From a virus: 60,934 nucleotides of DNA. Position numbers and translations under genes: made by a program. Where the stretch lies: positions 1-60,934 of IMG/VR virus record IMGVR_UViG_3300020385_000001; one strand, 5' to 3'. Under the pieces are notes generated by a model. It saw nothing but the letters and a program-made list of their open reading frames with translations, searched no databases and was not told the DNA's origin. Of this stretch, positions 1-60,934 are shown one piece after another. The first letter of the stretch is position 1. Each line of letters opens with the position of its first letter.

Positions 1-77
1 CCCCCTAATCATTTCTTTTTAGAATATATTTCAAGGCCTGATAACGCTGAAATATTTTTTGAAGATGTATTAATGGC
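1..77. repeat. 77-bp terminal direct repeat, left copy (identical to 60858-60934); circular-assembly overlap
   Basis: Read directly: the window starts CCCCCTAATCATTTC...GATGTATTAATGGC and the same 77 nt end the window. The repeat lies inside one continuous reading frame. Confidence 0.95.
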
Positions 78-4215: not shown

Positions 4216-5679
4216 ATGGCAAATGTATTACCCGAATTTGGGTCAATTAAACCTAGTCAGAAACAACAAGTTCTGTCTACAAATTATCTGCAATTTACAG
4301 ATAAAGCTGGCGATGATTTTTCAGATTTCGCAGCACAATATCTTCCTGAGATCTACGAACAAGAAGTAGAACGATATGGAAACCGAACTCTTTCTGGATT
4401 TCTACGTATGGTAGGAGCAGAAATGCCTATGACTTCAGATCAAGTAATTTGGTCAGAACAAAATAGATTACACATTGCTTATGACAGTGTTTCAAAACTT
4501 GCAAACAACGTTGATCTACAATTTACTCTTAACGCAACTGCTGGAGCTACTTTTGTTGATAACGTAGTATCTGCAAATCAAACAATTGTAGTAATGAATC
4601 CTGCTACAGGTGCTGAAGTAAAAGCTTTAGTTACTGCTAGTGCTGGATCTAACGCTGCTGGAAGTGCTAATGGTACTCTTACTGTTGCTACCTACACGGG
4701 AGCTAATCTTTCTACTGCTCTCGGAAGTGCTGGCGCAGTATTGGGTGGTCTTAAAATATTTGTATATGGTTCTGAATATAGAAAAGGAACTGGCGATGCT
4801 GATATTAGAAGCGTAACTCCATCTTTTACTCAATTTAACAATTCACCAATTATTATTAAAGAAAAATATGTGGTCAACGGATCAGATATGGCTCAAATTG
4901 GTTGGGTTGAAGTTGCTACTGAGGATGGAACATCTGGATACTTATGGTACTTAAAAGCTGAGTCCGAAACTCGTTTGAGATTTGAAGATTATTTAGAAAT
5001 GGCTATGGTTGAAGGTGAGAAAGCTGCTGCAGGTTCTGGGGTTGCTGGTATTGCTGCTGATTATGGTGGGACTGAAGGTCTTTTTGCTGCTATCGAAGCT
5101 AGAGGTAATGTACTAAACAATTTTAGTGCTGCTGCCGGTCTTGGCGAATTTGATAGTATTCTTAAAAATCTTGACACTCAAGGTGCTATTGAAGAAAACA
5201 TGCTTTTCCTTAATAGAAAAACTTCTTTAGATTTTGACGATATGCTAGCTAATATTTCTTCCGGTATTGGAGGAGGTACTGCTTTTGGTTTATTTGAAAA
5301 CTCTGAAGAAATGGCTTTGAATCTTGGTTTCTCAGGATTTAGAAGAGGTTCTTATGACTTTTATAAAACTGACTGGAAATATCTTAATGACGCTTCAACT
5401 AGAGGTGGAGTAGCTGTTTCAGCAATTGATGGAGTTCTTATTCCTGCTGGTACATCAACTGTATACGATCAAATCTTAGGTTCTAATATTCGTAGACCTT
5501 TCTTGCACGTTCGTTACAGAGCTTCACAAACTGAAGATAGAAGAATGAAATCTTGGATCACTGGATCTGCTGGAGGTGCTTATACTTCTGACATTGACTC
5601 TATGGATGTTCACTTTTTGTCTGAAAGATGTTTATGTGTACAAGGTGCTAACAATTTCGTATTGTTTACTGCATCATAA
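4216..5679 (+). CDS. Major capsid protein (putative)
   Basis: 487-aa ORF directly after the scaffold gene, followed by the clearest rho-independent terminator in the genome. Position-based call. Confidence 0.6.
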   Translation: MANVLPEFGSIKPSQKQQVLSTNYLQFTDKAGDDFSDFAAQYLPEIYEQEVERYGNRTLSGFLRMVGAEMPMTSDQVIWSEQNRLHIAYDSVSKLANNVDLQFTLNATAGATFVDNVVSANQTIVVMNPATGAEVKALVTASAGSNAAGSANGTLTVATYTGANLSTALGSAGAVLGGLKIFVYGSEYRKGTGDADIRSVTPSFTQFNNSPIIIKEKYVVNGSDMAQIGWVEVATEDGTSGYLWYLKAESETRLRFEDYLEMAMVEGEKAAAGSGVAGIAADYGGTEGLFAAIEARGNVLNNFSAAAGLGEFDSILKNLDTQGAIEENMLFLNRKTSLDFDDMLANISSGIGGGTAFGLFENSEEMALNLGFSGFRRGSYDFYKTDWKYLNDASTRGGVAVSAIDGVLIPAGTSTVYDQILGSNIRRPFLHVRYRASQTEDRRMKSWITGSAGGAYTSDIDSMDVHFLSERCLCVQGANNFVLFTAS

Positions 5680-31526: not shown

Positions 31527-31800
31527 AATAATATTTTCTTGCTTTTTTTATTGCCGGCCATATTCCTTTATCATCATAAGATATAGGTGAAATATGTGCC
31601 TTCTCACCTTTTTTATACAACCCTAATCTAACTTCTACATACCAAGAATCTGGGAATAATCCCTTTGTAGCAGGTTTAGGAGATATACGATAATTATTAT
31701 TAATACAATAATTAAAATGCAATTGTTCCTCATTATTTAAATTTTCATGATACTTATTTAACCCTTTATAATTTTTAGGTTTTTTTAACCCACTTCCCAT
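31507..31800 (-). CDS. Hypothetical protein (97 aa)
   Basis: ORF overlapping both neighbours in an operon-like arrangement. Confidence 0.5.
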   Translation of the reverse strand: MGSGLKKPKNYKGLNKYHENLNNEEQLHFNYCINNNYRISPKPATKGLFPDSWYVEVRLGLYKKGEKAHISPISYDDKGIWPAIKKARKYYYEKRTK

Positions 31801-33509
31801 GGCATTTCTTCTAAATGATTTGTTTCAGGATATATAGGTATAAAACAACCTGATTTATATTCCCATCTAAAATGTGCTTCTGCACCATTTTCGCCTAAGT
31901 TTTGGAATTTAACTTTGAGCACTTTGGCTTTAACAGTTTTATTATCATAATCGCGGTGAATGAGTAAACCATGATAAGATGCATCATACCACTCGCCACC
32001 GCCTTTAATATTATACATAGTTGGTTCTTCAATTTTGCCATCTTTATCTTTATACATTTTAGTAGGGTGAGCTACAACTATAACTAATACATCATATTTT
32101 TTAGCAAATATTTCAATCTTAGTAAGGTATTCCATTGTATACCTATTTACATCTTCTGTCTTGCAATTTACGTCCCTTATTTTATTAAATGGATCAATAA
32201 CTAAACATTTAATTCCTTTTCTTTTAACAAGTTCAGCTCCTTTCTTTAAAACTGATTCTAAAGTATAGCGCTCCATATCTATAAAAAAGAAATTTTCATT
32301 AACATGCTTAGCTATTGATTGCCATTTTGCTCCACCAATGTCGGACTTTTGTGGCATGTCTTGCCACACTTTTCGCATTAGTTTGTGAGCATGTAAAAAT
32401 GTTGGTGCATTTTCAGGTGATGCAAAAGCTGTTTTCCATTGATAATTTTGATTATATCCTACGACCATTTGGTCAACAAAATCAGACTTACCAGAAGAAG
32501 GTATACCAGTAACAGTAATAAACTGGCCGGTATACGTTGAAAATATTTCATCAAAATTTTGTAAACCAACTTGATAGCCTTTTTTAAATCCATTTTTAAC
32601 AAAATCTGTAATTTCTCCTTCAATGTCATTGAACGTCGTGACGTTTTCGAGCGGTACGGCCTTCGCCTTTTGTACAAGCTTTGATAATCTTTCAGTTCCA
32701 TATTTTAATAAATATTCGTTAGCGTCTTTGCAATCATCGAAGTCTATAATAAAACAAACCTCTGCACCAAGACGTCTAATTAATTCTTGTTGCAAGGCTT
32801 GTCCTGCTTCGTCTTTATCAACTGCTAAAATTATTTTTTCTTTATCATCAAAATAATCTATACAGTTATCTAAGTAATCTAAATTATTATTATTTATTGT
32901 AGCGCCGTTTGGGACAGAGACCACGTTTCGTATTCCAGCTTCATGAAAAGATAAAACATCCATCTCGCCTTCCACAATAATACAGCTGTTATACCCAACA
33001 ATGCTGTTAATATTATAAAATACTTTTTCGGCTCCTTTAAATAATTTAAAGTTTTTTCTACCATCTCTATATTTTATGTTAATTAAATCATTACCAATAA
33101 AATAATTAAATTTAATAGTATTTTCTTCTTTACCTGTTTGTGGCATCCATTCAGGGCCTTCAGATATTTTTAAATTTTGTAACGTATTTTTATTAATACC
33201 ACGCAGTTTAAACCAATCTTCAACCTTAGTGTTTTTAACAGGAGAAATATTTTCATTTACTGGTCGCACAAATTCCTTTGTGCTATCACCTTTTCTTTTA
33301 TAAGTATGTAACTGAAATGTAGTATTGCAGTTGTGACAAGTACCAAGCCCGGTTTGCCAATCATACGATGCACACTTTAATTTTTGTTTAGATGACTTTC
33401 TATCAGATGAACACAGGGGACAAATCCCCTGCGTCTTTCCTTCTTCAAGATCATATTGGTTGAAGCTTTCTATTGCGTAACCATTTATTTCTTGAGTATT
33501 TATTTGCAT
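31785..33509 (-). CDS. Bifunctional primase-helicase (T7 gp4-like)
   Basis: Cys4 zinc finger CPLCSS...CHNCN; TOPRIM motifs VEGEMDVLS and AVDKDEAGQ; Walker A GIPSSGKS; Walker B CLVIDPF. Confidence 0.8.
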   Translation of the reverse strand: MQINTQEINGYAIESFNQYDLEEGKTQGICPLCSSDRKSSKQKLKCASYDWQTGLGTCHNCNTTFQLHTYKRKGDSTKEFVRPVNENISPVKNTKVEDWFKLRGINKNTLQNLKISEGPEWMPQTGKEENTIKFNYFIGNDLINIKYRDGRKNFKLFKGAEKVFYNINSIVGYNSCIIVEGEMDVLSFHEAGIRNVVSVPNGATINNNNLDYLDNCIDYFDDKEKIILAVDKDEAGQALQQELIRRLGAEVCFIIDFDDCKDANEYLLKYGTERLSKLVQKAKAVPLENVTTFNDIEGEITDFVKNGFKKGYQVGLQNFDEIFSTYTGQFITVTGIPSSGKSDFVDQMVVGYNQNYQWKTAFASPENAPTFLHAHKLMRKVWQDMPQKSDIGGAKWQSIAKHVNENFFFIDMERYTLESVLKKGAELVKRKGIKCLVIDPFNKIRDVNCKTEDVNRYTMEYLTKIEIFAKKYDVLVIVVAHPTKMYKDKDGKIEEPTMYNIKGGGEWYDASYHGLLIHRDYDNKTVKAKVLKVKFQNLGENGAEAHFRWEYKSGCFIPIYPETNHLEEMPWEVG

Positions 33510-52891: not shown

Positions 52892-53173
52892 ATGACACTA
52901 TTTTACCAGACTCAATCGTGGTCTAGTCAATCACAAGTATCCGAAGAAACCAAGAAAATTTGGAAGCGTTATTCAAAGAAAAAAAATTGGCGAATAACTC
53001 AACTTCCAAACGGCTATTACCAAGCTGAATGGATTGATTTCAACGAAAACTGGAACGGAATCACAAGGCGTGAAACAATTGAAGGAGCTGAAAAAGCAAT
53101 TGAATCTTCAATTGAACATTACACTAAAAAATTAAAACTTTCTGAAGGTCCAGTTGTTGTAAAAACCTTTTAA
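52892..53173 (+). CDS. Hypothetical protein (93 aa)
   Basis: Track ORF. Confidence 0.5.
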   Translation: MTLFYQTQSWSSQSQVSEETKKIWKRYSKKKNWRITQLPNGYYQAEWIDFNENWNGITRRETIEGAEKAIESSIEHYTKKLKLSEGPVVVKTF

Positions 53174-53204: not shown

Positions 53205-54758
53205 ATGTCAGACGCAATTGTCAAAAACCTCAGCTTTGGTAACGAAGCTAAGAATAAACTATTTGAAGGTATAAACAAACTCACGAAAGCCGTTAGTTCC
53301 ACACTCGGCGCTAGCGGTAAACGTGTGATATTAGAAGATGGCGCAGGAAAACCCGTTATTACTAAAGACGGTGTTACTGTAGCAGATTCAATTGTATTAT
53401 TAGACCCTATTGAAAATATGGGTGCTACGCTTTTAAAGGAAGCTGCTAGGAAAACTGTAAGAGAAGCTGGCGACGGAACGACAACGGCTACAGTGCTAGC
53501 GCACTCAATTTTAAATGAAGCATACCCACAGTTAAAAGAATTAGGGGGCAGAAGTTTAAAAGAGGGTATTGATAGCGCTGTACAAAAAGTTGTAAAATAT
53601 TTGGAAAAAACCTCTGTAGAAGTTACAGGCGACATGATTGACCAAGTAGCTAGTATATCTACCAATAATGATATAAAGCTTGGTACAACTATTGCAAATG
53701 CATTTAGATCAGTAGATGAGACTGGTGTAGTTATGATGGAAACAACAGAGCTATCCGAAACTACATCTGAATTAATTGACGGATTACAATACGAGAAGGG
53801 ACTAACAAATTCACACTTTATTACTAAGCAAGATTCAAAAGTTGCTGAGCTAGATAATCCTTATGTGCTATTAATTGAATCTCCTGTTGAAAACATACGT
53901 AAAATACAATCTGTATTAGAATACATTATAAAGAAAAGTAAGCCTTTGCTTGTTATAGCTGATTTAGATCCTAAAGTTATATCTACATTAGCAATGAATA
54001 AAATAAAAGGTAATGTAAAGATTAATGTTATTAATGCACCTACTTATGGAGTAGCTAAAAAAGATATGCTAACTGACTTAGCACTATTAACCGGGGCTAC
54101 AATTATAAATGAAGATTTAGGTGATGATATGGATTTAATACAACCAGAACATTTAGGTAAATGCTTAAAGTCTGTTACTAATGATACAGAAACTATTATA
54201 AAAGTTGAAAACATCACTGATGAAGTATCAGAAGTAATTAATAAAATTAAAAAAGACTTATCTGGTAAAAACAATGCCGCTGAAACTATACGACTTGAAA
54301 AAAGATTAGCTAGATTATCAGCTAAGATTGCTACAGTTAAAGTTGGTGCAGATTCAGATATTGAATTAAAAGAAAAAGCAGATAGAGTAGAAGATGCTAT
54401 TTGCGCTACTAAAGCTGCGATTAAAGAAGGTATTGTACCGGGTGGTGGTGTAGCGTTACTAAATGCATCAACACAAATTAAGCCGAACAATAAAGCAGAA
54501 GAAATATTATTAGAGGCTATTAAGGCTCCCTATATTACAATATTACAAAATGCAAATTTTGACATTGTAGAATTTAATAAAAAAGGTTGGGGGCTAGATG
54601 TTATTACTGGCAAAAGTAAAAATATGACTAAGTCAGGAATAATTGATCCGTTACTTGTTACTAAGACTGCATTAAAGAATGCGGCTTCCGTGGCAACTAC
54701 TATATTATCTACAGATTGTATAATTAATAATTTACGTATTAATGAAGGCAATAGGTAG
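53205..54758 (+). CDS. groL: Chaperonin GroEL homolog (517 aa, no GGM tail)
   Basis: Collinear with E. coli GroEL from the N-terminus (FGNEAKNKLFEGINKLTKAV..TLG..G..V). It also has ITKDGVTVA, AGDGTTTATVLA, VPGGGVALL and IDPLLVTKTALKNAASVA. Confidence 0.9.
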   Translation: MSDAIVKNLSFGNEAKNKLFEGINKLTKAVSSTLGASGKRVILEDGAGKPVITKDGVTVADSIVLLDPIENMGATLLKEAARKTVREAGDGTTTATVLAHSILNEAYPQLKELGGRSLKEGIDSAVQKVVKYLEKTSVEVTGDMIDQVASISTNNDIKLGTTIANAFRSVDETGVVMMETTELSETTSELIDGLQYEKGLTNSHFITKQDSKVAELDNPYVLLIESPVENIRKIQSVLEYIIKKSKPLLVIADLDPKVISTLAMNKIKGNVKINVINAPTYGVAKKDMLTDLALLTGATIINEDLGDDMDLIQPEHLGKCLKSVTNDTETIIKVENITDEVSEVINKIKKDLSGKNNAAETIRLEKRLARLSAKIATVKVGADSDIELKEKADRVEDAICATKAAIKEGIVPGGGVALLNASTQIKPNNKAEEILLEAIKAPYITILQNANFDIVEFNKKGWGLDVITGKSKNMTKSGIIDPLLVTKTALKNAASVATTILSTDCIINNLRINEGNR

Positions 54759-55002
54759 AAACTTAATAATTAAAAAAGAAAAGCAAGGTACTTCTGAAAC
54801 TAAAGGAGGGTTATTGTTAACTGAAAATCAAAGAGAAGATTTAAGATACAACAAAGCTAAAGTAATATCTATAGGTTCTGAAGTTATTGGAGTTGAAGAA
54901 AACGACAATATTTATTATGACAAACATGCAGGTCATGGGGTTGAGATAGATAAAGAAGTTTTTCAAGTAATTAAACTTCAAGACGTTGTAATCGTTTTAT
55001 GA
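54742..55002 (+). CDS. groS: Co-chaperonin GroES/Cpn10 homolog (86 aa)
   Basis: IGRNLIIKKEKQGTSETKGGLLL (mobile-loop region) ...AKVISIGSEV...VFQVIKLQDVVIVL follows the Cpn10 pattern. It overlaps groL by 17 nt. Confidence 0.7.
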   Translation: MKAIGRNLIIKKEKQGTSETKGGLLLTENQREDLRYNKAKVISIGSEVIGVEENDNIYYDKHAGHGVEIDKEVFQVIKLQDVVIVL

Positions 55003-55445
55003 AAAGATTAGAAGCAAGAGATTTAAAAGATCTTAACTTGCTTAAGCATTATAGAATTATAAGAAAGTGGGCCGCTAAAAATAACGGCATGACTGATGCA
55101 GATTTAGAGCTTTTAATATATTTAGATTGTGTTGATTTATTTACTAAAATAGATTTTAAAATGGGTGCTTATTCATATAGCTGGAATAATAGGAGATGGA
55201 ATACGCTATTAAAAGAAGGCTGGATAACTGTGTGGCGTAAAAGAAACCACACAACTCAAAAGTATAATATATACAAAACATCATTTAAATGCAAGCAACT
55301 TATAAATCGTATATATAAAATAATGTTAGGTGAGGAAGATATTCCTATAAGCGAACGCAGAAATGTAATAATGAAAGGCGAAACTTATACAAATAAAGTT
55401 TTAAAAGTTTCAATAAATAATATTAATAAAGACAAGTATAGATAA
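54999..55445 (+). CDS. Hypothetical protein (148 aa), possible winged-helix DNA-binding fold
   Basis: Track ORF. Trp/Lys/Arg-rich, with a weak wHTH-like pattern (LELLIYLD...LLKEGWITVWRK). Confidence 0.35.
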   Translation: MKRLEARDLKDLNLLKHYRIIRKWAAKNNGMTDADLELLIYLDCVDLFTKIDFKMGAYSYSWNNRRWNTLLKEGWITVWRKRNHTTQKYNIYKTSFKCKQLINRIYKIMLGEEDIPISERRNVIMKGETYTNKVLKVSINNINKDKYR

Positions 55446-58129: not shown

Positions 58130-58360
58130 ATGAGTAGTGTTATAAGAAAGATCAGCATCGGTTCTGATTATAAAAATGATGCTATGCATTACTCCGTAGG
58201 TCAAGAGGTGTACGGGGGACACAAAATAGCTTATATCATATTCGAAGATACTGATAGTTCTTATAATATTTTTATAAAAAAGAATAATGAGGTATTACCT
58301 TGGAAAAAATTTAATTCTAATATGGCAATTTCTGTTGAATATAATTTAGAATATGAATAG
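58130..58360 (+). CDS. Hypothetical protein (76 aa)
   Basis: Track ORF. Confidence 0.5.
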   Translation: MSSVIRKISIGSDYKNDAMHYSVGQEVYGGHKIAYIIFEDTDSSYNIFIKKNNEVLPWKKFNSNMAISVEYNLEYE

Positions 58361-58958
58361 TATCTACGATTTTATCGTTGAGCCTATTGGGCAAAGATAT
58401 AACAATACAACTAAAGTACATAACAAAAATTTAATATTAAATTCTAATATAGAATCATTTAAGTTTATAAATAAACTTGCCAAAGTTATATCTACACCAA
58501 AAGCTTATAATACCGTTATAAAAGAAGGTGATGAAATCATAATTCATCATAATGTTTTTAGAAGATACTATGATATAAAAGGTAAAGAAAAAAATAGCAG
58601 TAAATACTTTAAAAATAATCTTTACTTTTGTCAGCCAGATCAAGTGTATCTTTACAAAAAAAGCAATAAATGGCATTCATTTATGGATAGATGTTTTGTT
58701 AAGCCTCTTTTAAATAATAACCCTACAAGCTTAGAAAAAGAGCAAAAGCATATTGGTATATTAAAGTATGGCAATAGCTCGTTAAAAGCGCTCGAAATTA
58801 ACCCAGGGGATGTCGTAGGGTTTACTCCTAATAGCGAATGGGAGTTTATAATAAATGATGAAAGATTGTATTGTATGAAATCTAATGATATTGTTATTAA
58901 GTATGAACGTAAAGAAAACCAAACTGAGTATAATCCAAGCTGGGCAAAAAGCAGTTGA
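58353..58958 (+). CDS. Hypothetical protein (201 aa)
   Basis: Track ORF. A vague Cpn10-like beta pattern at the N-terminus was not judged sufficient for a call. Confidence 0.5.
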   Translation: MNSIYDFIVEPIGQRYNNTTKVHNKNLILNSNIESFKFINKLAKVISTPKAYNTVIKEGDEIIIHHNVFRRYYDIKGKEKNSSKYFKNNLYFCQPDQVYLYKKSNKWHSFMDRCFVKPLLNNNPTSLEKEQKHIGILKYGNSSLKALEINPGDVVGFTPNSEWEFIINDERLYCMKSNDIVIKYERKENQTEYNPSWAKSS

Positions 58959-59169
58959 GGAATTAATTAAAGTAGCTAAAGAAGCTATTGTAGATTCAGA
59001 AGATGATATATCAGCAGATAGATTAAAAAATGCAGCAGCAACAAAAAAGTTAGCAATATTTGATGCATTTGAAATACTTACTAGAATAGAAACTGAAGAA
59101 AAATTATTAGAAGATAAGTCTAGTAATCAAAAAACTTTTGGAGGTTTTGCCGAAACAAGATCTAAATAA
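58885..59169 (+). CDS. Hypothetical protein immediately upstream of terL (possible small terminase subunit; likely starts at the ATG at 58903)
   Basis: Position only. The stop overlaps the terL ATG (TAATG). Confidence 0.3.
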   Translation: MILLLSMNVKKTKLSIIQAGQKAVEELIKVAKEAIVDSEDDISADRLKNAAATKKLAIFDAFEILTRIETEEKLLEDKSSNQKTFGGFAETRSK

Positions 59170-60934
59170 TGTATAAGCAAACATTATATTCGATTATATC
59201 CGATTATGTAAAGCCTAATATATTAAAGAAAAAAAATAAACAAAAAAGCTGGGGATACGGATACAACAAAGAGCATGACTTAGTAATTATAAGTAAAACA
59301 GGTGAGCTTGGCGAAGTATATGATATTCAAGGCTTAAAAATAGGTCTACCATTAATACATAAATGCTTTAAAAGATCAAATAAAAAAGCTGAGCAGTTTT
59401 GGCAAAAGTTTAATTATCCTAAAGAGCTGAGTAAAATAAAAAGCGTTTTTGACTGGAATAATTATCCAGACAATTTTAAAGAACAATGGTACGATTATAT
59501 AGATAATGAATTTAAATATAGAGAAGAAGGCTTTGCGTTTTATAATAACGGCAATGAAGCTTACATTACTGGTACTCATTACATGTACTTGCAATGGACT
59601 AAAATTGACGTTGGGGCCGCTGAATTTAGGGAATCAAATAGATTATTCTACATTTTCTGGGAAGCATGCAAGGCAGATAGTAGATGTTACGGAATATGCT
59701 ATCTCAAAAACAGACGGTCTGGCTTTAGCTTCATGGCATCGAACGAAACTGTCAACCAAGCTACAATATCAAGCGACGCAAGATTTGGAATTTTATCAAA
59801 AACTGGGGCTGATGCCAAAAAAATGTTTACAGATAAAGTCGTTCCAATATCAACCAATTATCCTTTCTTCTTCAAGCCCGTTCAAGACGGTATGGATCGC
59901 CCCAAAACAGAGCTTGCTTACCGAGTGCCCGCCTCCAAACTAACTCGGCGCAAGATAGAAGTAGGCGAACAATTAGCGGATATTGATGGGCTTGATACTA
60001 CAATCGACTGGAAAAATACAGGCGATAACTCATATGATGGAGAAAAGCTAAAGCTTTTAGTTCACGATGAATCTGGTAAGTGGGAAAGACCAGATAATAT
60101 AATTAATAACTGGAGAGTAACAAAAACAACATTAAGGCTAGGAAGTAGAATAGTAGGCAAATGTATGATGGGTTCTACATCTAATGCTTTAGATAAAGGA
60201 GGCGAAAACTTCAAAAAATTATATGAAGGATCAGACGTTACAAAAAGAAACCGCAATGGACAGACTAGCTCAGGATTATATTCTTTGTTCATACCTATGG
60301 AATGGAATTACGAAGGATTCATTGATATGTTTGGATTACCTGTATTTGATACACCGGAAAAACCAGTCGAAAGTATTGACGGTACTCAAATAGAAACAGG
60401 TGTAATTGATTATTGGATGAACGAAGTTGATGGATTAAAAAAAGATCAAGACGCTTTAAACGAATTTTATAGACAATTTCCCCGAACTACACAGCATGCA
60501 TTTAGAGATGAAACAAAACAATCTTTATTTAATCTAACTAAGATTTATGAACAGATTGATTATATTGAGGAAACAAAATACACAGGTCTTATAACACAGG
60601 GTAATTTTCAATGGCGAGGAGGAATTAAAGATTCATTAGTTGAATTTCAGCCTAATAATAATGGGAGATTTTTTATTTCATGGATACCTCCTCAAAATAT
60701 GCAAAATCGATCTATATCTAAAGGTAATTTAAGATACCCGGCTAATGAACACTGTGGCGCTTTTGGCTGTGATAGTTATGATATATCAGGCACAGTAGAT
60801 GGGCGCGGATCAAAAGGATCTTTACACGGGCTCACTAAATTTACTATGGAAGACATACCCCCTAATCATTTCTTTTTAGAATATATTTCAAGGCCTGATA
60901 ACGCTGAAATATTTTTTGAAGATGTATTAATGGC
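59169..60934 (+). CDS. terL: Terminase large subunit, N-terminal part (open at the window end; continues at base 1 after removing the 77-bp overlap)
   Basis: Manual translation from the ATG at 59169 is stop-free to 60934. It shows ...YLKNRRSGFSFM (Walker A-like), KLLVHDESGKW (Walker B), GSTSN... The ORF is missing from the track because it has no stop in the window. Confidence 0.8.
   Translation, partial: MYKQTLYSIISDYVKPNILKKKNKQKSWGYGYNKEHDLVIISKTGELGEVYDIQGLKIGLPLIHKCFKRSNKKAEQFWQKFNYPKELSKIKSVFDWNNYPDNFKEQWYDYIDNEFKYREEGFAFYNNGNEAYITGTHYMYLQWTKIDVGAAEFRESNRLFYIFWEACKADSRCYGICYLKNRRSGFSFMASNETVNQATISSDARFGILSKTGADAKKMFTDKVVPISTNYPFFFKPVQDGMDRPKTELAYRVPASKLTRRKIEVGEQLADIDGLDTTIDWKNTGDNSYDGEKLKLLVHDESGKWERPDNIINNWRVTKTTLRLGSRIVGKCMMGSTSNALDKGGENFKKLYEGSDVTKRNRNGQTSSGLYSLFIPMEWNYEGFIDMFGLPVFDTPEKPVESIDGTQIETGVIDYWMNEVDGLKKDQDALNEFYRQFPRTTQHAFRDETKQSLFNLTKIYEQIDYIEETKYTGLITQGNFQWRGGIKDSLVEFQPNNNGRFFISWIPPQNMQNRSISKGNLRYPANEHCGAFGCDSYDISGTVDGRGSKGSLHGLTKFTMEDIPPNHFFLEYISRPDNAEIFFEDVLM
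60858..60934. repeat. 77-bp terminal direct repeat, right copy
   Basis: Identical to bases 1-77. Confidence 0.95.

What the first reader, a model, noticed from the sequence alone, without database searches (positions are those of the whole stretch)
53205..55002. A 61-kb phage encodes a complete chaperonin pair, GroEL plus GroES
ORF 53205..54758 is an unmistakable GroEL (ITKDGVTVA, AGDGTTTATVLA, VPGGGVALL, IDPLLVTKTALKNAASVA). It is 517 aa and lacks the C-terminal GGM repeats. The next ORF overlaps it by 17 nt and has the Cpn10 pattern, including an ETKGGLLL mobile-loop-like segment. Established knowledge: T4 encodes only the co-chaperonin (gp31) and borrows host GroEL. The characterised phage GroELs, such as Pseudomonas phage EL gp146, come from jumbo phages and work without a co-chaperonin. 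A GroEL+GroES operon in a mid-sized podovirus-like genome, sitting between the fibre genes and the packaging genes, is unusual. It suggests a folding client, such as the 487-aa capsid protein or the large fibre proteins, that the host system handles poorly.
Basis: partly seen in the sequence, partly recalled or inferred. Interest (0 to 1): 0.65.

Follow-up and report, generated by a model that had tools for sequence, protein, structure and literature searches.

The report
Marine phage GroEL plus GroES operon
This complete 61-kb marine phage does carry its own protein-folding machine (a GroEL cage and a matching GroES lid), but such pairs are already documented in related phages of marine Flavobacteriaceae and in ocean viromes, so it is a sound but ordinary example.

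Summary
Observation confirmed. ORF 53205-54758 is a full-length group I chaperonin. ORF 54742-55002 is a Cpn10 by profile and by predicted fold, and overlaps it by 17 nt. The ATP-site residues are intact and invariant in 80 relatives. All 80 related viral contigs keep GroEL>GroES with a 4-23 nt overlap. The two genes co-diverge (r 0.87) under purifying selection (dN/dS about 0.12).

The pair looks co-adapted. The GroES loop is fixed as TKGG-L-L/F/I-L, and its roof hairpin is 9 residues shorter than in E. coli. The GroEL apical groove carries clade-fixed changes, there is no GGM tail, and the E. coli inter-ring contact residues are not kept.

The novelty claim does not hold. Marine et al. 2017 described this 'GroEL>GroES' virioplankton clade. 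Nishimura et al. 2017 reported complete marine genomes with GroEL. Cultured 60-77 kb podophages (Elemovirus, Cellulophaga phi38:1 and phi40:1, Maribacter Panino) are annotated with both genes.

The capsid protein as client is plausible but untested.

One side-lead: a 201-aa gene next to the large terminase gene (TerL) looks like a tandem, Cpn20-like double Cpn10.

The parts
53205..54758 (+). Phage GroEL (group I chaperonin, 517 aa, 55.6 kDa). The ATP site is intact. There is no GGM tail, the apical groove is altered, and the E. coli-type inter-ring contacts are not kept.
   Evidence: Profile matches. Residue mapping. C-terminal tails.
54742..55002 (+). Phage GroES (Cpn10, 86 aa). The mobile loop reads ETKGGLLL. 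The roof hairpin is 9 residues shorter than in E. coli and 4 shorter than in Flavobacteriaceae GroES.
   Evidence: Profile and structure matches. hhalign. Alignment.
54742..54758 (+). 17-nt overlap between the end of groEL and the start of groES. This suggests translational coupling.
   Evidence: The overlap is 17, 20 or 23 nt in 79 of 80 related loci and 4 nt in the remaining one.
54999..55445 (+). Conserved downstream ORF (148 aa, pI 9.9) that overlaps the groES stop by 4 nt. Its function is unknown. It may correspond to the conserved downstream ORF noted by Marine et al.
   Evidence: Present in 80 of 80 loci at 63-100% identity. PHROG 17028 matches at 2.5e-9. The only structural hint is a weak MarR/TcaR wing match, E 0.028.
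52892..53173 (+). Conserved upstream ORF (93 aa) of unknown function.
   Evidence: Found in 65 of the 80 loci; of the 15 without it, 11 have less than 400 bp upstream of groEL and 2 about 1.3 kb; two long-flank loci (L045, 6.0 kb; L028, 2.3 kb) lack it. Identity is 49-99%. No family match.
58353..58958 (+). Long Cpn10-like protein (201 aa, pI 9.2) upstream of TerL, with a 94-aa ORF between them. The C-terminal half is a Cpn10 homolog with a shortened loop. The N-terminal half is modelled as a second Cpn10-like barrel that keeps a GG-xx-hydrophobic-triplet segment.
   Evidence: PHROG 13932 matches at 4.7e-25. Foldseek's top PDB hit is the Chlamydomonas Cpn20 chain 7ekq_R. BFVD hits. hhalign gives 97.6% for the C-terminal half. 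Synteny. Co-occurrence.
4216..5679 (+). Capsid-like virion structural protein (487 aa, 52.3 kDa). It is the candidate client; this is inference only.
   Evidence: PHROG 13704 matches at 1.3e-92. Among deposited phage records, homologs occur only in Flavobacteriaceae phages and MW202828. Size.
59169..60934 (+). Large terminase (TerL). It continues across the record junction into 1-531. It marks the packaging module next to the long Cpn10-like gene.
   Evidence: PHROG 6681 matches at 2e-130. The record ends overlap by 77 nt, and both pieces match Panino TerL.

Best explanation
The phage encodes its own group I chaperonin machine. GroEL subunits form a heptameric ring or rings that capture non-native protein on the apical groove. 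ATP binding then lets the phage's own GroES heptamer dock through its TKGG-LLL mobile loop and enclose the client, and hydrolysis through the conserved Asp (E. coli D398) resets the cycle.

The two genes are one translationally coupled, co-inherited and co-adapted unit inside the late or structural arm. They most likely serve virion morphogenesis.

The chamber lacks the GGM tails at its floor and has a shortened roof hairpin at its top. This parallels the way T4 gp31 enlarges the cage for its 56-kDa capsid protein. The 52-kDa capsid-like protein is therefore the leading candidate client.

Shown: identity, integrity, conservation, coupling and co-divergence of the two genes.
Inferred: ring assembly, the pairing of this GroES with this GroEL, the enlarged cavity, and the client.
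For: ATP-site residues:
- T30, L31, G32, K51, D52, D87-T91, I150, S151, D398, G415, G416, I493 and D495 match E. coli.
- The motifs are invariant in 80 of 80 clade sequences.

Synteny and selection:
- 80 of 80 related IMG/VR loci keep GroEL>GroES with a 4-23 nt overlap.
- Pairwise distances of the two proteins correlate with r 0.87, and 0 of 999 Mantel permutations reach that value.
- dN/dS is 0.124 for GroEL and 0.113 for GroES.

Signs of co-adaptation:
- In GroES, T20, G22, G23, L24 and L26 are invariant.
- In the apical groove Y199L, S201N, Y203H, L234Q, V263A and V264M are fixed or nearly fixed in the clade. The same positions are 74-80 of 80 conserved in cellular GroELs, except L234 at 67 of 80.

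Cavity features:
- The GroES roof hairpin is shortened.
- No GGM tail occurs in any of 80 clade members.

Context:
- Every neighbouring gene from the fibres to terminase, portal and capsid lies on the same strand.
- Among deposited phage records, the capsid family occurs only in Flavobacteriaceae phages and MW202828. All those with at least 36% identity that I checked also carry GroEL and GroES.
- GroEL protein of the related phage phi38:1 was detected in infected cells (PMC13288928).
Against:
- The residues that hold E. coli's two rings together are not conserved. R452, S463, V464 and A109 are variable in the clade, and there are deletions at about 428-436 and 466-471. The classical two-ring cycle therefore cannot be assumed.
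- GroES falls below all NCBIfam equivalog cut-offs, and GroEL falls below TIGR02348.
- L234Q removes one hydrophobic contact in the groove.
- Nothing ties the capsid protein to the chaperonin beyond size, gene neighbourhood and analogy.
- Phi18:3, whose capsid homolog is distant, has no GroEL.
Confidence: 0.85

Rival explanations
1. The pair is a general takeover or independence module. It replaces or supplements the host GroEL/ES for many phage and host proteins during infection, rather than serving one special client such as the capsid protein.
For: Marine et al. raise this possibility. The phage also carries other large, unusual late proteins, of 796, 889, 1468 and 2335 aa. GroEL also occurs in unrelated phages with different capsids, including a 43-kb siphovirus.
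Against: The gene sits in the late or structural arm. The roof-shortened, tail-less cage points to a size-limited client. The very large proteins cannot be enclosed.
Confidence: 0.3
2. The two proteins do not work together. GroES retargets the host GroEL as T4 gp31 does, while the phage GroEL works without a lid like Pseudomonas phage EL gp146.
For: Phi18:3 has a GroES and the long Cpn10-like gene but no GroEL, so co-chaperonins in this lineage can act on the host GroEL. Lid-free phage chaperonins are known (PDB 6tmt family).
Against: The genes overlap in 80 of 80 loci and co-diverge. The apical groove and the mobile loop both carry clade-fixed changes. The window's GroEL is far from EL gp146 (107 bits, against 330-370 bits to bacterial GroELs).
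Confidence: 0.1
3. The phage GroEL is a single-ring or mitochondrial-type chaperonin, in which rings associate only transiently. It cycles with its GroES without E. coli-type negative inter-ring allostery.
For: All four positions changed in the single-ring GroEL mutant SR1 (R452, E461, S463, V464; established knowledge) are affected. R452, S463 and V464 are replaced and variable within the clade, and E461 is kept as E or D in 13 of 19. A109 is also replaced. Deletions flank both contact sites. In 80 cellular GroELs these positions are strongly conserved.
Against: The case rests on sequence only. A different inter-ring interface could have evolved. The alignment in this loop region is uncertain: searches place the gap differently.
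Confidence: 0.3
4. The genes are a decaying or recently captured host fragment, or bacterial contamination of the contig.
For: None beyond the bacterial ancestry of the family.
Against: The record is a complete phage genome with overlapping ends. dN/dS is about 0.12. The clade is monophyletic on a long stem and only 37-41% identical to any cellular GroEL. The gene order is reversed relative to 69 of 75 cellular loci that have a detectable GroES.
Confidence: 0.01

Closest known systems
Virioplankton 'GroEL>GroES-1/-2' clades (Marine et al. 2017, ISME J, PMC5649160)
   Same: The gene order is reversed and the GroES lacks the roof hairpin. A conserved ORF lies immediately downstream, the structural genes resemble those of Cellulophaga podoviruses, and the sources are marine viromes.
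   Different: I could not align their sequences directly, so membership is inferred from shared features. They guessed genomes above 70 kb. This one and its relatives are complete at about 59-66 kb.
Elemovirus (Flavobacterium phages vB_FspP_elemo, about 60 kb) and MW202828
   Same: They have the same genome size, the same GroEL>GroES order, a shortened GroES roof, a long Cpn10-like gene upstream of TerL, and a related capsid (44.6-49.9% identity). In the tree they group with the window clade (SH-aLRT 91, with a long-branch caveat).
   Different: Identity is only 40% and 35% for GroEL and 28-35% for GroES. Elemovirus keeps R452 and has GDSTTC instead of GDGTTT. The downstream 148-aa ORF is not found in the annotated neighbourhoods.
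Cellulophaga phages phi38:1 and phi40:1 (Pervagoviridae, 72.5 kb) and Maribacter phage Panino (77 kb)
   Same: They are flavobacterial podophages with GroEL, GroES, a long Cpn10-like gene upstream of TerL and a homologous capsid. The phi38:1 GroEL was detected as protein in infected cells.
   Different: Their order is the canonical Cpn10, a short ORF, then GroEL. GroEL identity is about 37%.
E. coli GroEL/GroES, and T4 gp31 acting with the host GroEL
   Same: The ATPase site, the domain layout, the Cpn10 fold and the G-plus-hydrophobic-triplet mobile loop are shared. Like gp31, the lid lacks a full roof hairpin.
   Different: Identity to E. coli GroEL is 38%. There is no GGM tail, the inter-ring residues are not kept, and six apical groove positions are changed. 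T4 carries no GroEL.
Jumbo-phage chaperonins that work without a co-chaperonin (EL gp146, OBP gp246, AR9 type)
   Same: They are phage-encoded members of the Cpn60 family.
   Different: They are only 22-28% identical and lie on very long branches. No co-chaperonin gene lies next to GroEL in the loci I fetched. The window's protein is much closer to bacterial GroELs.
Chloroplast Cpn20 (tandem Cpn10), as a comparator for the 201-aa side gene
   Same: It has two Cpn10-like domains in one chain. The Chlamydomonas Cpn20 chain 7ekq_R is the top Foldseek hit over 205 columns. The C-terminal half matches Cpn10 by profile at 97.6%.
   Different: The model is low-confidence (pLDDT 63). The N-terminal half is not detectable as Cpn10 by sequence against the bacterial profile, and the C-terminal domain lacks the loop motif. 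The protein is basic (pI 9.2) and sits where a small terminase subunit is usually found.

Membership tests
Group I chaperonin Cpn60/GroEL | Full-length match to the family profile above the curated cut-off | tested here: met
   Pfam PF00118 scores 204.3 bits against 34.3. NF009487 scores 459.5 against 352, and NF000592 scores 456.3 against 397.
Group I chaperonin Cpn60/GroEL | NCBIfam equivalog score for a canonical bacterial GroEL (TIGR02348) | tested here: not met
   It scores 451.6 bits against a cut-off of 582.1. It is a divergent member, not a housekeeping-type GroEL.
Group I chaperonin Cpn60/GroEL | Nucleotide-binding and hydrolysis residues (GDGTTT, D52, D87, D398, GGG 414-416, D495) | tested here: met
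   All are identical to E. coli. The motifs are invariant in 80 of 80 clade members. The single change, P33A, is fixed in the clade.
Group I chaperonin Cpn60/GroEL | Hydrophobic apical groove (helices H and I) that binds substrate and the GroES loop | tested here: inconclusive
   F204, L237 and L259(I) are kept. Y199L, Y203H, L234Q, V263A and V264M are changed and fixed in the clade. The groove is still largely hydrophobic but is re-tuned.
Group I chaperonin Cpn60/GroEL | Back-to-back double heptameric rings held by the R452/E461/S463/V464 and A109 contacts | tested here: not met
   The contact residues are replaced and variable, with adjacent deletions. The oligomeric state itself cannot be tested with these tools.
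Group I chaperonin Cpn60/GroEL | C-terminal GGM repeats (typical, not universal) | tested here: not met
   Absent in 80 of 80 clade members. 65 of 80 cellular GroELs end G/M-rich.
Cpn10/GroES co-chaperonin | Profile match above the Pfam gathering score | tested here: met
   PF00166 scores 46.1 bits against 21.1. hhalign against a bacterial GroES profile gives 97.4%. It is below all NCBIfam GroES cut-offs.
Cpn10/GroES co-chaperonin | GroES beta-barrel fold | tested here: met
   The AlphaFold2 model has pLDDT 84.3. The top 35 Foldseek PDB hits are all Cpn10, GroES or gp31.
Cpn10/GroES co-chaperonin | Mobile loop with a conserved Gly followed by a hydrophobic tripeptide | tested here: met
   The loop reads ETKGGLLL. 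G22, G23, L24 and L26 are invariant in 38 sequences. The model is disordered there, with pLDDT 56-66.
Cpn10/GroES co-chaperonin | Roof beta-hairpin | tested here: not met
   There is a 9-residue gap relative to E. coli and 4 relative to Flavobacteriaceae GroES. T4 gp31 shows the same loss (established knowledge; Marine et al.).
Cpn10/GroES co-chaperonin | Heptamer that binds GroEL in the presence of nucleotide | not testable with these tools
   This needs biochemistry or EM.
Virioplankton GroEL>GroES clade (Marine et al. 2017) | GroEL upstream of GroES, a GroES without the roof hairpin, a conserved downstream ORF, and Cellulophaga-podovirus-like structural genes | tested here: met
   Direct sequence comparison with their GenBank entries or the Oxic3_1 fosmid was not possible.
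Lid-independent phage chaperonins (EL gp146 type) | No co-chaperonin gene, and a highly divergent Cpn60 (20-28% identity to GroEL) | tested here: not met
   An adjacent Cpn10 gene is present. The match to EL gp146 scores 107 bits, against 330-370 bits to bacterial GroELs.

The most novel reading that the evidence does not exclude
The phage carries a three-part chaperonin system rather than a pair. The parts are a GroEL that has lost the E. coli-type ring-ring contacts (single-ring or mitochondrial-style cycle), a roof-shortened GroES, and a Cpn20-like tandem double-Cpn10 protein encoded upstream of the large terminase. The tandem protein would supply a second lid or a mixed lid, for example three tandem chains plus one GroES giving seven domains, as in chloroplast Cpn10/Cpn20 lids. 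This would be the first heteromeric co-chaperonin described in a virus. The tandem gene occurs in Elemovirus, MW202828, Pervagoviridae, Panino and even the GroEL-less phi18:3. That distribution suggests co-chaperonins came first in this lineage and GroEL was added later.
Probability: 0.15. Interest if true: 0.65.

Novelty: already known. Interest (0 to 1): 0.3.

Why it matters
The case shows that self-contained folding machines are a standard, strongly conserved feature of an abundant lineage of marine Flavobacteriaceae podophages of about 60 kb. They are not a jumbo-phage oddity. This corrects the published guess that such phages exceed 70 kb.

No phage GroEL/GroES pair that I found in the literature searched here has been characterised biochemically. 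The clade's fixed groove and loop changes, missing tail, short roof and lost inter-ring contacts therefore give concrete, testable predictions about cage size and ring cycling. Cultured relatives (Elemovirus, phi38:1) make those tests feasible.

Tried and rejected
- A megablast of the region against deposited phages found no match.
- Promoter and terminator scans around the operon found no more sites than shuffled sequence gives.
- No tRNA genes were found.
- BLASTP of GroES against the 201-aa protein showed nothing. The shallow hhalign gave only 58%. A deeper alignment was needed.
- A profile search of the PDB with the 201-aa family found nothing significant.
- The 94-aa ORF between the 201-aa gene and TerL is not a detached N-terminus of TerL (E 0.2).
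- Nesting inside the sampled Bacteroidota is not what the tree shows (Bacteroidota are monophyletic at 98). However, an AU test does not reject the phage clade plus Bacteroidota as one group (p 0.595). An ancient Bacteroidota-lineage origin therefore stays open.
The cellular sample is therefore a subset, not the nearest neighbours.
- A 2182-aa 'member' listed in the GroEL cluster is an unrelated giant virion protein, not a fusion.
- Earlier notes on this genome held nothing about the chaperonin.
Full report
**Observation**

ORF 53205-54758 (+, 517 aa):
- It matches Pfam Cpn60_TCP1 end to end (204 bits, cut-off 34.3).
- It matches PHROG 5725 'chaperonin groEL' (4e-131).
- It passes two NCBIfam GroEL subfamily models above their cut-offs, but falls below the equivalog TIGR02348 (451.6 against 582.1).
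- Against solved structures it scores 330-370 bits to bacterial GroELs and only 107 bits to Pseudomonas phage EL gp146.

ORF 54742-55002 (+, 86 aa) overlaps it by 17 nt:
- It passes Pfam Cpn10 (46.1 bits against 21.1) and PHROG 3188.
- A profile of 38 relatives finds only Cpn10 and Cpn20 chains in the PDB.
- hhalign against 62 bacterial GroES gives 97.4% probability.
- An AlphaFold2 model (pLDDT 84.3) has 35 consecutive top Foldseek hits that are all Cpn10, GroES or T4 gp31.

**Context**

- The window is a complete virus record of 60,934 bp. Its ends overlap by 77 nt, and the large terminase gene (TerL) crosses the junction.
- It encodes portal, a capsid-like structural protein, TerL, ribonucleotide reductase and primase-helicase, and a holin. 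It has no tRNAs.
- The chaperonin genes lie in the long plus-strand late arm, after three fibre-like genes and before lysis, packaging and head genes.
- Among deposited phage records, homologs of the capsid-like protein and of the 201-aa gene occur only in phages of Flavobacteriaceae (Flavobacterium, Cellulophaga, Maribacter) and in the uncultured MW202828. The host is therefore probably a marine member of that family. This is an inference.

**Integrity and conservation**

- Mapped on E. coli GroEL, every nucleotide-site residue checked is identical (T30, L31, G32, K51, D52, D87-T91, I150, S151, D398, G415, G416, I493, D495). The motifs are invariant in 80 clade members.
- A protein search returned a very large marine metagenome family. 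Its members are 69-96% identical and 515-525 aa long (one truncated entry of 483 aa), and its longest contigs cluster at 59-63 kb.
- In all 80 related IMG/VR loci, GroEL is followed by GroES with a 17, 20 or 23 nt overlap (4 nt in one locus), and then by a conserved 146-153 aa ORF.
- Pairwise distances of the two proteins correlate (r 0.87; 0 of 999 Mantel permutations as high).
- Both genes are under purifying selection (median dN/dS 0.124 and 0.113).

The pair is thus a single, co-inherited, functional unit.

**Distinctive anatomy**

- The GroES mobile loop is fixed as T-K-G-G-L-(L/F/I/E)-L.
- Its roof hairpin is 9 residues shorter than in E. coli and 4 shorter than in Flavobacteriaceae GroES. 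Elemovirus and MW202828 share this feature.
- None of 80 clade GroELs has a GGM tail.
- In the apical groove, Y199L, S201N, Y203H, L234Q, V263A and V264M are fixed or nearly fixed. The same positions are almost invariant in 80 cellular GroELs. This is what co-adaptation of groove and loop would look like.
- The inter-ring contacts R452, S463, V464 and A109 are replaced and variable, and deletions flank both contact sites. The exact gap placement differs between two alignments. This allows, but does not show, a single-ring or mitochondrial-type cycle.

**Origin**

- Sampled cellular GroELs from many phyla are all 37-41% identical.
- In a 110-sequence tree the window clade is monophyletic (100) on a long stem. 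It lies outside the monophyletic Bacteroidota (98).
- It groups weakly with Elemovirus and MW202828 (91, with a long-branch warning).
- An AU test does not reject clade plus Bacteroidota as one group (p 0.595).
- The capture is therefore old, and a Bacteroidota-lineage source remains possible.
- The gene order is reversed relative to 69 of 75 cellular loci with a detectable GroES. The six exceptions are all Planctomycetota.

**Prior knowledge**

- Marine et al. 2017 described 'GroEL>GroES-1/-2' virioplankton clades. These have a roof-less GroES, a conserved downstream ORF and Cellulophaga-podovirus-like structural genes. The authors proposed the capsid as client by analogy with T4.
- Nishimura et al. 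2017 reported 36 complete marine genomes of the phi38:1-related group with GroEL.
- Elemovirus, MW202828, phi40:1 and Panino are annotated with both genes.
- A 43-kb siphovirus carries GroEL alone.
- The phi38:1 GroEL has been detected as protein in infected cells.

**Mechanism**

The best reading (0.85) is a working phage chaperonin with its own lid, acting late in infection. The roof-shortened, tail-less chamber and the 52.3-kDa capsid-like protein fit the T4 gp31/gp23 logic. The client is inference only; I put it at roughly even odds against a broader clientele.

**Side finding**

- ORF 58353-58958 (201 aa, pI 9.2) matches PHROG 13932 'co-chaperonin GroES'.
- Its homologs lie directly upstream of TerL in Elemovirus, Panino and phi38:1. 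In the window a 94-aa ORF lies between it and TerL.
- With a 93-sequence alignment, its C-terminal half matches the bacterial Cpn10 profile at 97.6% (E 4.5e-12) but has a loop about 7 residues shorter.
- Its N-terminal half aligns weakly (50%) to the phage GroES, over a G-G-x-x-hydrophobic-triplet segment.
- A low-confidence model (pLDDT 63) has the tandem Cpn20 of Chlamydomonas as its best PDB hit, followed by about 30 GroES chains. Its viral hits include 'chaperonin cpn10' of phage phi18:3.
- The family has 807 representative clusters.
- It co-occurs with GroEL and GroES in this podophage lineage. It is also present, together with a GroES, in phi18:3, which has no GroEL.
- It may be a second or mixed lid, or a protein with a Cpn10-type fold doing packaging work at the usual position of the small terminase subunit. 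Both remain open.

Noticed in passing
window 58353-58958 (+): A third chaperonin-related gene: a 201-aa basic protein upstream of TerL (in the window a 94-aa ORF lies between them). It looks like a tandem double Cpn10, similar to chloroplast Cpn20. Public annotation calls it only 'co-chaperonin GroES' or 'chaperonin cpn10'. The family has 807 clusters.
   Followed up: yes
L176 record (Cellulophaga phage phi18:3, KC821620.1): This related 71-kb podophage has a GroES (41.5 bits) and a long Cpn10-like ORF (220 aa) but no GroEL. In this lineage the co-chaperonins can therefore exist without a phage GroEL and presumably act on the host's.
   Followed up: partly
window 54999-55445 (+): A basic 148-aa ORF overlaps the groES stop by 4 nt and is conserved in 80 of 80 relatives. 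The only hint to its function is a weak match to the wing of the MarR-family regulator TcaR (E 0.028). It could be a DNA-binding regulator riding in the operon.
   Followed up: partly
window 1-77 and 60858-60934: The record's two ends are identical over 77 nt, which is an assembly overlap or a terminal repeat. The large terminase gene runs across this junction (59169-60934 and then 1-531).
   Followed up: yes
cluster of P0001: A 446-aa member of the 90% GroEL cluster is deposited as 'molecular chaperone GroEL [Candidatus Bathyarchaeota archaeon]' (RLI50014.1, on a 3990-bp contig). This is most likely a phage contig mis-binned into an archaeal MAG.
   Followed up: no
L092, L101, L103, L106, L155, L158 (Planctomycetota genomes): All six cellular loci in which a GroES gene follows GroEL, instead of preceding it, are from Planctomycetota. 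This probably reflects tandem groESL copies.
   Followed up: no
L170 (MW202497.1, 42.9-kb siphovirus): A genome of only 43 kb carries a GroEL with no detectable Cpn10 anywhere in the record. The gene sits between glycosyltransferase genes.
   Followed up: no
L002 record (MW202828.1) 31749-32345: The homolog of the long Cpn10-like gene in MW202828 is read through two in-frame TGA codons by the six-frame search. This could be a frameshifted call, a pseudogene or recoding.
   Followed up: no
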